A stretch of 23,165 bases of DNA, from positions 1 to 23,165 of the forward strand of contig DAIENX010000052.1 in NCBI GenBank assembly GCA_027340875.1. Direction: 5' to 3'. Of this stretch, positions 20,806 through 23,165 are shown in pieces. A program made the position numbers and the translations under genes. The notes beneath the pieces are model-generated. The model was not told where the DNA came from. It searched no databases and saw only the letters and a program-made list of their open reading frames with translations. The first letter of the stretch is position 1. Each line of letters opens with the position of its first letter. The stretch is from Elusimicrobiota bacterium. GTDB lineage: Bacteria > Elusimicrobiota > Elusimicrobia > Elusimicrobiales > UBA9959.

Positions 20806-20864
20806 GGGCCCACAGGCCCCGGACCCTGGGCCCATTTCCGGCCATAACCTGGGCCATTGGGCGC

Positions 20865-20893
20865 TTGCCTGCTCCCCCTCCTCGCGGTAGACT
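20865..20893 (+). promoter_or_regulatory. sigma70-like promoter, probably near-leaderless
   Basis: TTGCCT (20865-70) - 17 nt - TAGACT (20888-93), 8 nt before ATG 20902. No SD. Confidence 0.55.
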
Positions 20894-20901
20894 ATAGCCG
20901 C

Positions 20902-21666
20902 ATGACGCTATTCAGAACCGCCATCCACGCCCTGCTCGCGTTATCCTTCACCCTGCCGGCCTGCGCGGCCACGGCCACGGCCGAAGAGGTCGTACAGCGC
21001 AACATACTGCTCAGCGAGACCGTCACGCCGCTGACCCCGGCCGACGCCAGGGCCATAGCCGCCGCGCGCGGGGACAAGGCCATAGTTATCCCCGCGGCCC
21101 TCGTCATACTGGCCGGAGCCAAGGTCTGGAACGTCATAATGGACAACCGGCCGTCAGCCGACCTGGCCTCGGCCTACGCCAGCGCGATACCCGGCTTCGA
21201 CTTCAACTGGAACGAGCTTTCCTCCTGGAAGAAGGTGACCAGGAAATACCGCTTCACTATAGACCACTGGCTGCAGGGCCGCGCGGTGGACATAGTCTAC
21301 GAGATCTCCTTCTATTACGGCTCCATCTCCCTGCCCGGAAGCGGCAAGCTCCGCGGCCACTATCTGGCCAATTTCGTGATAAAACCCGAAGTCATAGACC
21401 TCAAGTGGGGCTGGAAAGTCGCGCTCACTGCGGCCATGTCCGACCCGATGAACATCGGTACCCCCGAGGAGCCGGTGGCCATGCTGAACGCGGACCTCAA
21501 ATGGCAGTACGCCAAGCCCCTCAGCACCAAGCCCAATATAGGCATGAACTCCGTCTCGGTCAACGGGCTGGGAGAGATGGCCGAGGAATCATACGGCGAC
21601 CTCGCCATAGCGCCGGTGCCTGCGGGCGAGCAGCGTGACTACGCCCCTGAAGTGAAGTGGGACTGA
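20902..21666 (+). CDS. Secreted hypothetical protein, paralogue A
   Basis: Signal peptide. Shares WNVI, YASAIPGFxFNW, WKK, GHYxxNF, KWGWK, MSDPMNI, PVA, VxGLG with the next gene. Confidence 0.85.
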   Translation: MTLFRTAIHALLALSFTLPACAATATAEEVVQRNILLSETVTPLTPADARAIAAARGDKAIVIPAALVILAGAKVWNVIMDNRPSADLASAYASAIPGFDFNWNELSSWKKVTRKYRFTIDHWLQGRAVDIVYEISFYYGSISLPGSGKLRGHYLANFVIKPEVIDLKWGWKVALTAAMSDPMNIGTPEEPVAMLNADLKWQYAKPLSTKPNIGMNSVSVNGLGEMAEESYGDLAIAPVPAGEQRDYAPEVKWD

Positions 21667-21755
21667 AGGCCCAGCCCGTCTTGGGCCCCGCGGCACTTGC
21701 CGCATTTTCCGGAGAAGTTAAACTATATACAAGACCTAAGTTCAGGAGACGAACC

Positions 21756-22556
21756 GTGAAAAACCTCTTCCTCGCAGCCGCCTTCTGCGTTTCCCTTTCT
21801 CCGCTGGCAGCCGCCGGCGCGGCCGACAATGATTATTTCAGGACAGGCCTCACGAGGCTCACCTCCGAAGTCACGGAAAGAGACCTTACGGAAGCGGACA
21901 CTGTCAACGTCCCGATGAAGCCCGATAACGAACGCGTTGGCCCCGCGGCGGCGATAGTCAACGGCGGCGTACAGGCGTGGAACGTGATCAACAGCGGCAA
22001 GCCGGACGCCAACCTCTCCAGCTCCTACGCCAGCGCTATCCCCGGCTTCAGCTTCAACTGGGCCAATTTCAGCGGCTGGAAGAAGAGGGAAGCGGTCTAC
22101 ACCTACACCGTGACCAACCTGATGCAGGTGGACGTCATTAAGATAAAGTTCGCGGTCTCCTACTACTACAACGGCCAGAACCTGGTGGTGCAGGGCAAGC
22201 CGGGCTCCGATCCCATCAGCAGCATGGCCCAGCGCGATGTCATCAAGGGCCACTACATCACCAACTTCACCGTCCGCCCGCTGTCGATGAACATCAAGTG
22301 GGGCTGGAAATTCTCGCTCAACGTCCGCATGTCAGACCCGATGAACATCGCTGCCCCAGGAGAGGACCCGGTGGCCTATCTGCAGTCCGATCTTAACTAC
22401 ATAGTCTCCACCCCTTTCTCCACCGACGGCGCGGTCTGGACCTACGGCGTTGACGGCCTCGGCGGTTTCAGGGACCTGACCGCGGAGAACCGCGAGCTGG
22501 CCAGGCAGATCCCGGAGATAACCCCGCTGGAGGCCAAAGAGATACAGTGGTATTGA
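21756..22556 (+). CDS. Secreted hypothetical protein, paralogue B
   Basis: GTG start with AGGAG RBS (21744-48), signal peptide MKNLFLAAAFCVSLSPLAAAGA, same motif series as paralogue A. Confidence 0.88.
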   Translation: MKNLFLAAAFCVSLSPLAAAGAADNDYFRTGLTRLTSEVTERDLTEADTVNVPMKPDNERVGPAAAIVNGGVQAWNVINSGKPDANLSSSYASAIPGFSFNWANFSGWKKREAVYTYTVTNLMQVDVIKIKFAVSYYYNGQNLVVQGKPGSDPISSMAQRDVIKGHYITNFTVRPLSMNIKWGWKFSLNVRMSDPMNIAAPGEDPVAYLQSDLNYIVSTPFSTDGAVWTYGVDGLGGFRDLTAENRELARQIPEITPLEAKEIQWY

Positions 22557-22572
22557 GCAGAGCAGTCTCCAG

Positions 22573-22612
22573 AAAAGAAGGACCCCGGCTTTTATGCCGG
22601 GGTCCTTCTTTT
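22573..22612. terminator. Bidirectional Rho-independent terminator
   Basis: Perfect 17-bp inverted repeat AAAAGAAGGACCCCGGC (22573-89) / GCCGGGGTCCTTCTTTT (22596-612). Confidence 0.92.
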
Positions 22613-22629
22613 ATCGCGGTCGCGGACTA

Positions 22630-22906
22630 CTTGCCCGGTCACGGATAAGCCGCATAGCGGCTTTCCTGGCCTATGGCCGTGCCGCATCTGCGCTATGCGC
22701 GTGCCGTATCAGACGCTATGCGTATCAGACGGCCAGGAGCTATGCTCTGGGCTATGCCCGTGTCGTATCAAGCGCTATGCGCATCAGACGACCATCAGGC
22801 GGCCGCGACCCCGGCAAGAAGGAACCGCTTCGCGGTTCGCGGCGCTCGTCGCTGTGCTCGCGCCTCCGGCCTTGCGGGCCGGCCGCACGGCATGATTATG
22901 CCGTGC
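22630..22906 (-). other. Highly structured non-coding element with nested triloop-hairpin modules, element 3 (candidate ncRNA or ssDNA element)
   Basis: Six NNNC-TAT-GNNN hairpins plus one inverted, three covarying 5-bp stems flanked by ATC/ATCAG, closing stem CTTGCC 22630-35/GGCAAG 22813-18, and further hairpins up to 22906. Confidence 0.75.
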
Positions 22907-22907
22907 T

Positions 22908-23165
22908 CTAACGCCGGCCCTCACCGCAGCACTTCTTGAACTTCTTGCCGGAACCGCAAGTGCAGGGGTCGTTCCTGCCCACTTTCGGTTCCTCGCGTCT
23001 GACGGTCTCCACCTTCACGGTCTCGCCGCCCTGCAGCACCTCGGGGTGCTTCTTCATCCACTTCTTCACTTCCCTGTCGTCGTTGATGTTCACGTTGTCC
23101 AGCAGCATCTTGCGGTAGATGCCGATGATCAGCGCGCGCATCTGCGGGTCCCTGGCCTGCGCCAG
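22908..23165 (-). CDS. SEC-C motif protein, 3' part (partial)
   Basis: Open frame to the window edge, ending [21 protein letters not shown]. The upstream sequence does not look like SecA. Confidence 0.88.

What the first reader, a model, noticed from the sequence alone, without database searches (positions are those of the whole stretch)
22630..22818. Recursively nested ('fractal') hairpin element with internal covariation
Seen: a module T-[4-bp hairpin, C-TAT-G loop]-GT-[5-bp arm]-ATC(AR)...ATCAG-[complementary arm]-C occurs three times, and two copies sit inside the third. Outer copy: GGCC-TAT-GGCC (22668-78), then GCCGC 22681-85 ... GCGGC 22799-803. Inner 1: GCGC-TAT-GCGC (22690-700), then GCCGT 22703-07-ATCAG-ACGC-TAT-GCGT-ATCAG-ACGGC 22729-33. 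Linker: GAGC-TAT-GCTC (22737-47). Inner 2: GGGC-TAT-GCCC (22749-59), then GTCGT 22762-66-ATCAA-GCGC-TAT-GCGC-ATCAG-ACGAC 22788-92. The stems differ in sequence but always pair (GCCGC/GCGGC, GCCGT/ACGGC, GTCGT/ACGAC; five different 4-bp triloop stems), while loops and linkers are nearly invariant. The whole is closed by CTTGCC/GGCAAG and GGTC/GACC. Inference: secondary structure is under selection. On the minus strand the internal loops read CUGAU/YUGAU (capable of tandem sheared G.A pairs, as in K-turn/SECIS cores), the triloops read ATA and the bulges are A. It could be a multivalent protein-binding ncRNA/3' UTR scaffold, or a self-inserting non-autonomous ssDNA mobile unit that nests into itself. 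I do not recognise it as a known RNA family.
Basis: partly seen in the sequence, partly recalled or inferred. Interest (0 to 1): 0.85.

Follow-up and report, generated by a model that had tools for sequence, protein, structure and literature searches.

The report
Tiny 46-base self-nesting mobile DNA
The 'fractal' hairpin is two copies of a 46-base jumping DNA piece that landed inside a third; dozens more are scattered through these bacteria, and the enzyme that moves them is unidentified.

Summary
The nested hairpins are real, but they are not one RNA. They are three copies of a 46-nt dispersed element: 59 model hits in this genome, and hits in 68 of 79 other genomes of the family (Elusimicrobia by record titles). 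Two copies (22688-22733, 22747-22792) sit inside a third (22666-22803), which sits in a ~150-nt repeat inserted in a gene end. Empty sites, including six in coding sequence, show exact 46-nt insertion, no target duplication, placed just 5' of a C (mostly C-A-A). Base 1 covaries with base 14 (C:G, T:A, G:C), so the folded strand brings both ends together as a nicked dumbbell. The same internal sites are hit repeatedly; another genome built the same double nest independently. Orientation to genes is unbiased, against a UTR/ncRNA role. Best mechanism (inferred, ~0.55): single-strand excision and reinsertion by an HUH-type enzyme in trans. No cognate enzyme was found; local Y1 and IS91-type transposases have other ends. 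It fails REP, IS200/605, IS91 and MITE membership tests. New family of a known kind.

The parts
22666..22803 (+). Outer 46-nt element (22666-22687 + 22734-22746 + 22793-22803), interrupted twice; inserted 5' of target C22804
   Evidence: Without the inner copies it equals the two C79 copies; un-nested paralogue with the same left flank on C69 and empty host copies on C3, C65, C5
22688..22733 (+). Inner copy 1, inserted before host base C23 (first internal loop)
   Evidence: Model score 70.7 bits; same site hit in at least 10 other loci
22747..22792 (+). Inner copy 2, inserted before host base C36 (foot of the second hairpin)
   Evidence: 72 bits; same site hit on C14, in L236/L341 (G023, identical inner copy in a different outer copy) and in L340 (G032)
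22636..22926 (.). Host repeat of about 150 nt (ends approximate) carrying the outer copy; it has its own TAT-triloop hairpin on the other strand (22648-22664)
   Evidence: Five other partial matches in this genome, at least three without the 46-mer; whole stretch missing at the orthologous site of G023 and of 18 other genomes fetched
22627..22635 (-).
   Evidence: G023 orthologue ends this way
22908..23165 (-). 3' end of a gene with a SEC-C motif (PF02810); its present stop comes from the inserted repeat
22573..22612 (.). Hairpin with A/T tails between the convergent genes, probably a bidirectional terminator; not part of the element
   Evidence: Read from sequence; a like hairpin stands at the orthologous sites; the consensus scan did not list it
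21756..22556 (+). Upstream gene of no Pfam family (paralogue at 20857-21666); bystander

Best explanation
Shown (confidence about 0.95): a 46-nt non-autonomous mobile element with exact ends that inserts without duplicating its target, directly 5' of a C (consensus C-A/T-A). One strand folds into hairpin 1 (base 1 pairs with base 14, base 2 bulged, TAT loop), an unpaired T15, and a 5-bp arm / 5x5 internal loop / hairpin 2 whose last pair (16:46) abuts base 1. The window's 'fractal' is two insertions at recurrent sites of an older copy. Inferred (about 0.55): the folded single strand is a nicked dumbbell that puts both element-flank junctions side by side; an HUH-type nicking-joining enzyme supplied in trans cuts there, reseals the flanks, releases a 46-nt single-stranded circle and re-inserts it at exposed C-A-A sites, including loops of other copies. 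End-to-end arrays come from insertion at its own end, multimers or slippage. The enzyme and the active strand are not identified.
For: Copy number 59 at E<0.01 here; 68 of 79 other family genomes, 0-73 copies, capped at 77 scored. Exact empty sites: repeat hosts and host copies, one coding insertion in another family (L242), five distinct sites inside IS91-type transposase genes, one by the G:C subtype. First flanking base C in 123 of 141 dereplicated single sites, then A 93/T 29, then A 86 (contigs over 9 kb left out). Base 1 follows base 14: C in 118 of 125 G14 sites, T in 17 of 20 A14, G in 7 of 7 C14, while the next flank base stays C (107/125, 15/20, 6/7). 95.6% of 1162 cells paired, 182 double changes, against 79.2% and 61 in shuffles and 29-48% for slid controls. 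DNA-parameter circular fold of both inner copies on + gives the dumbbell with the 1:14 pair. No-duplication, short-target, ss-circle logic is that of HUH systems (PMC13181058, PMC3333891, PMC8266576).
Against: No transposase is flanked by the element: 2 of 80 Y1 loci hold any element end; neighbour clustering shows no recombinase. This assembly (92% complete) has one Y1 gene with its own palindromes and no Y2, reverse transcriptase or IS110 hit. G098 has 61 copies and no Y1 or Y2 hit. Copy number does not differ with Y2 presence in the genus (means 24 vs 16, p=0.23). Replication-strand bias, expected for IS200/605-like movement, is weak: 50 of 80 (sign p=0.03, t p=0.15) and 25 of 39 neighbour pairs concordant (p=0.11). 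Strand hints conflict: G.T exceeds A.C 47:23 on +, target logic and skew favour -. No circle was observed; the 1:14 pair forms in the linear form too.
Confidence: 0.55

Rival explanations
1. Same 46-nt unit, but moved as a structured RNA (excised or circular rod, reverse-spliced or copied back by a reverse transcriptase in trans).
For: Precise ends without duplication also fit reverse splicing; G.T excess on one strand (47:23); rod-like circle folds well as RNA (mean z about -2.5); weak replication bias.
Against: No reverse transcriptase hit in this assembly; no ribozyme or intron match in Rfam; far too short for a group II intron (recalled); both orientations equal relative to transcription.
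Confidence: 0.15
2. Single-stranded DNA movement by a non-HUH or unrecognised enzyme (tyrosine recombinase acting on folded strands, topoisomerase, or an uncharacterised SOS-induced protein).
For: No HUH partner found; extrahelical bases on a folded strand recall integron attC substrates (recalled); genomes rich in copies can lack Y1 and Y2 hits (G098).
Against: Only two tyrosine recombinase genes, of XerC/D size, in this assembly (not examined further); target differs from the integron crossover (recalled); no candidate clusters beside copies.
Confidence: 0.2
3. A functional ncRNA or 3' UTR scaffold with K-turn-like protein sites.
For: Stable fold and covariation.
Against: Even orientation to genes; absent from 19 orthologous sites; disrupts genes; nest explained by insertion history.
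Confidence: 0.03
4. Local duplication relic or assembly artefact.
For: One 22-study-independent check is lacking: the tiling runs come from one study.
Against: Three copies differ in paired positions; each has closer relatives elsewhere; independent double nest in G032; junction-spanning unitigs.
Confidence: 0.02

Closest known systems
REP / BIME / REPIN elements with RAYT (TnpA-REP)
   Same: 20-50 nt structured, strand-specific, non-autonomous, dispersed and clustered; insertion into existing copies noted for REPINs (PMC3116915 passage); ss circle model (PMC3333891 passage).
   Different: No GTAG/GTGG or CGTC tag; not inverted doublets; fixed exact ends; cut maps N|C, not C|T or C|A (PMC8266576); no flanked RAYT.
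IS200/IS605 peel-and-paste ends and their non-autonomous derivatives (PATEs, recalled)
   Same: No duplication; short target on one side; element end resembles the target; a base at the hairpin foot pairs with the terminal base.
   Different: Only 46 nt in all; the outside target base does not change with the internal base; local IS200-type loci carry no such ends.
IS91/ISCR rolling-circle elements (Y2)
   Same: No duplication, target tetranucleotide next to one end, ss circle as integrating form (PMC13181058); abundant in this family (30 of 80 genomes).
   Different: Local Y2 ends are unrelated in sequence and are followed mostly by G-A/T-T-N, the 46-mer by C-A-A-N; the 46-mer inserts into these elements rather than deriving from them.
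Small dispersed repeats (SDRs) of Nostocaceae (Elhai et al. 2008)
   Same: Very small, apparently mobile repeats with a preferred insertion site and no known enzyme (second-hand from PMC5861425 and PMC2884548 passages; rest recalled).
   Different: About 20-27 nt, cyanobacterial, no sequence likeness known; the paper itself was not held.
CGTC-tagged repeats (RPE, dRS3)
   Same: Palindromic repeats lacking a dedicated transposase (PMC3733652 passages).
   Different: Single 8-9 bp stem with a terminal tag; no two-hairpin dumbbell.

Membership tests
REP/REPIN | GTAG/GTGG tetranucleotide at the foot of the hairpin | tested here: not met
   Consensus of 83 copies has none on either strand
REP/REPIN | Cognate RAYT gene flanked by the repeat | tested here: not met
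   2 of 80 Y1 loci hold any element end; they carry their own inverted repeats
REP/REPIN | Inverted doublets as the main unit | tested here: not met
   Singles dominate (168 single units; clusters are direct tandems or nests)
REP/REPIN | Cleavage at C|T or C|A | tested here: not met
   T:A and G:C subtypes place the junctions at N|C; biochemical cut not testable
IS200/IS605 derivative | No target duplication, short one-sided target | tested here: met
IS200/IS605 derivative | Ends shared with an autonomous TnpA element | tested here: not met
   No element ends in the IS200-type loci L165-L167; a clade-wide search for longer elements with the same left end was not completed
IS200/IS605 derivative | Orientation bias to the replication fork | tested here: inconclusive
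   50 of 80 and 25 of 39
IS91/ISCR derivative | oriIS/terIS ends and target like those of the local Y2 elements | tested here: not met
   Different end sequence and target
Classical MITE | Terminal inverted repeats plus target duplication | tested here: not met
   Ends asymmetric, no duplication
Known Rfam RNA (K-turn, SECIS, C/D box) | Match at gathering score | tested here: not met
   0 hits in the window; best over the element 9.3 bits against 38
HUH substrate in general | Strand-specific cleavage with 5'-phosphotyrosine and ss circle | not testable with these tools
   Needs biochemistry

The most novel reading that the evidence does not exclude
A minimal mobile DNA: 46 nt whose whole information is a fold that closes into a covalent dumbbell circle, moved by an enzyme not yet recognised as a transposase, which preys on other mobile elements and on itself and can carry cargo between its ends (nested 92-nt composites recur at several loci). 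It would be a natural, scarless, almost target-free single-strand insertion system.
Probability: 0.25. Interest if true: 0.88.

Novelty: new variant of a known kind. Interest (0 to 1): 0.68.

Why it matters
How 20-50 nt bacterial repeats spread is a long-open question because their ends and targets are usually blurred. Here ends, target base, fold and subtypes are fixed to the base by natural insertions in coding genes, so a cleavage/strand-transfer test can be written down at once. Finding the enzyme would show either a substrate for the untested TIR-associated Y1 proteins or IS91-type proteins, or a new ssDNA recombinase. It also warns that striking covarying 'fractal RNAs' in genomes can be insertion histories.

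Tried and rejected
Rfam: none. Viral contigs: 0. Plasmids and phages: no match. First reading that the base before the module is a target base chosen by guide pairing was dropped: nests and coding insertions show it travels with the element. RAYT-type C|T cut dropped for the same reason. Y1 proteins of the genus and of five copy-rich genomes, IS91-type Y2 (78, 81, 84, 102), GIY-YIG (42, 44-48: small housekeeping-like gene next to other repeats), reverse transcriptase, IS110, tyrosine recombinases (41, 43, 88): none tied to the element. The Y2 family search rang in no control genome. Target C only slightly more unpaired than other C-W sites in rebuilt empty sites (0.57 vs 0.51). No RNA holder listed. 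An end-to-start joint in three runs cannot tell tandem arrays from circles. Earlier findings: nothing relevant. Literature searches that did not surface this element: 0 papers; listings only; no mention of the phylum; subscription papers are not covered. My notes call the SEC-C gene 'secA'; only the SEC-C motif is shown. A clade-wide listing of left ends lacking the second hairpin was not completed, so a longer autonomous partner outside the loci held is not excluded.

Full report
Observation. Every stem and coordinate in the finding reads as written. The region folds better than shuffles on both strands as RNA and DNA (z -2.5 to -3.5), though the single best folds only partly match the nested drawing. 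Rfam has nothing at gathering score. Unitigs from three runs of one study tile the nest without differences.

It is a dispersed repeat. A search of the own genome gave 47 matches. A covariance model from 83 copies (83 of 98 thinned references, 15 damaged or chimeric rows left out by eye) finds 59 hits at E<0.01 here, hits in 68 of 79 other genomes of the family with up to 73 copies (capped at 77 scored), and in 9 of 151 genomes drawn from the phylum, three of them single hits outside the family (one weak). Viral contigs, phages and plasmids gave nothing.

Exact ends. The module is ambiguous by one base because it is usually bracketed by C. Subtypes settle it. Asking for copies with a non-G at base 14 returned copies whose first base changes in step: C with G14 in 118 of 125 dereplicated sites, T with A14 in 17 of 20, G with C14 in 7 of 7, while the base after the element stays C. 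T-starting copies nested in other copies restore the normal host sequence only if the T travels with the element. Insertions in coding sequence confirm 46 nt and no duplication: one gene in another family and five sites in IS91-type transposase genes, one by the G:C subtype. The target is C in 123 of 141 single sites, then A or T, then mostly A.

Fold. On the alignment, 95.6% of cells pair, with 182 double changes against 61 in shuffles; slid controls pair 29-48% (kin are not independent). Nine of 14 pairs show double changes, including 1:14. Base 2 is bulged and T15 is invariant and unpaired, so helix 1 stacks against the arm whose last pair is 16:46: the two ends of the element meet. Joined, they give a closed dumbbell, which the DNA-parameter circular fold returns for both inner copies on the + strand. 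The pair also forms in the linear state, so this does not prove a circle. Some 47-nt variants have a different first hairpin but keep the same foot.

The window. The outer copy 22666-22803, minus its inserts, equals the two copies on contig C79. Inner copies sit before host bases C23 and C36. These sites recur: C23 in at least ten other loci, C36 on C14 and in G023 and G032, C39 in three loci. G032 holds a double nest at the same two sites with different inner subtypes, so the 'fractal' arose twice. G023 has the same inner copy 2 in another outer copy at another locus, which suggests composites move as units (inference). The outer copy interrupts a ~150-nt repeat with empty paralogues, and that repeat is inserted in the last codons of a SEC-C-motif gene; G023 and 18 other orthologous sites lack it.

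Not an mRNA element. Flanking-gene orientation is even, 19 against 19 (rough gene calls), and none of the 59 hits lies within a called gene here, while decayed genes elsewhere carry it.

Mechanism. No duplication, a short one-sided target, an element start that resembles the target (C-A-A-G is the commonest start, 50 of 141, and a commonest target) and subterminal hairpins are the pattern of HUH single-strand transposition: IS200/605 and RAYT (PMC3333891, PMC8266576, passages) and IS91, where a single-stranded circle is the integrating form (PMC13181058, introduction and passages). I therefore favour excision and reinsertion of a folded single strand by an HUH enzyme in trans (0.55). Against it: no partner. 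Y1 genes are common (36 of 42 genus genomes) but carry the inverted repeats described for TIR-associated Y1 proteins (PMC3733652, PMC6006769, passages); 2 of 80 loci hold an element end. IS91-type genes occur in 30 of 80 family genomes; 7 of 35 such loci hold the 46-mer (11 copies in 100 kb, some loci overlapping), but as inserts, and their ends and targets differ. This enrichment may be neutral tolerance or a real link. This assembly has no Y2, reverse transcriptase or IS110 hit but is incomplete. Replication bias is weak and the hints on the active strand conflict (versus 104).

Known kinds. It works like REP/REPIN, IS200/605 miniatures and the cyanobacterial SDRs (seen only second-hand in PMC5861425 and PMC2884548 passages), and fails the membership tests that could be run. 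PMC3116915 and PMC12306157 were read as passages. Searches did not surface it; subscription papers and supplements were not seen, so a listing in a repeat catalogue is possible.

Verdict. A real, clade-restricted family of 46-nt mobile elements with base-exact anatomy and an open mobiliser: new variant of a known kind, interest 0.68.

Noticed in passing
G000 contigs C22, C68, C69, C74, C78; L236; Y1 and Y2 loci: A palindrome (CGACA, six bases, TGTCG) followed by a -10-like motif precedes recA-like, radC-like, ssb, repair helicase, comM-like and ORF6N-like genes and most Y1 and Y2 transposase genes (gene names from reading the sequences): a candidate SOS/LexA box for this clade. The 46-mer often inserts in it.
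   Followed up: partly
window 22560-22930 and orthologues L222, L223, L232, L234, L235: The same intergenic site hosts a TIR-flanked Y1 transposase, solitary TIR pairs or a protease gene in other genomes: an insertion hotspot beside the terminator.
   Followed up: partly
L273-L307: A divergent ~490-aa IS91/ISCR-like transposase clade with a conserved right end is widespread in this family and often decayed; solitary right ends also lie near 46-mer loci.
   Followed up: partly
G000 C69:31497-36841: Array of short cassettes, each with the palindrome-promoter and an ORF6N-like or small gene, separated by a repeated motif.
   Followed up: no
G000 C1, C20, C65, C73, C81 and others: Several other 60-150 nt structured repeat families, some with the same TAT-triloop hairpin, some beside or in tRNA genes; 172 repeat regions at depth 5 or more. 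They may share a mobiliser.
   Followed up: partly
L145, L146, L149, L155, L159 (rplN-rplX); G000 C56:1356-1400 (after rplR): Copies fixed inside ribosomal protein operons; several copies supply the stop codon of the upstream gene.
   Followed up: partly
window 20857-22556: Two tandem paralogous secreted-looking proteins with no Pfam family, conserved across the genus.
   Followed up: no
G000 C73:313-2040 and C108:1-930: Near-identical GIY-YIG plus downstream gene pair on two contigs, the C73 copy with a frame break; duplication or strain mixing in the assembly.
   Followed up: no
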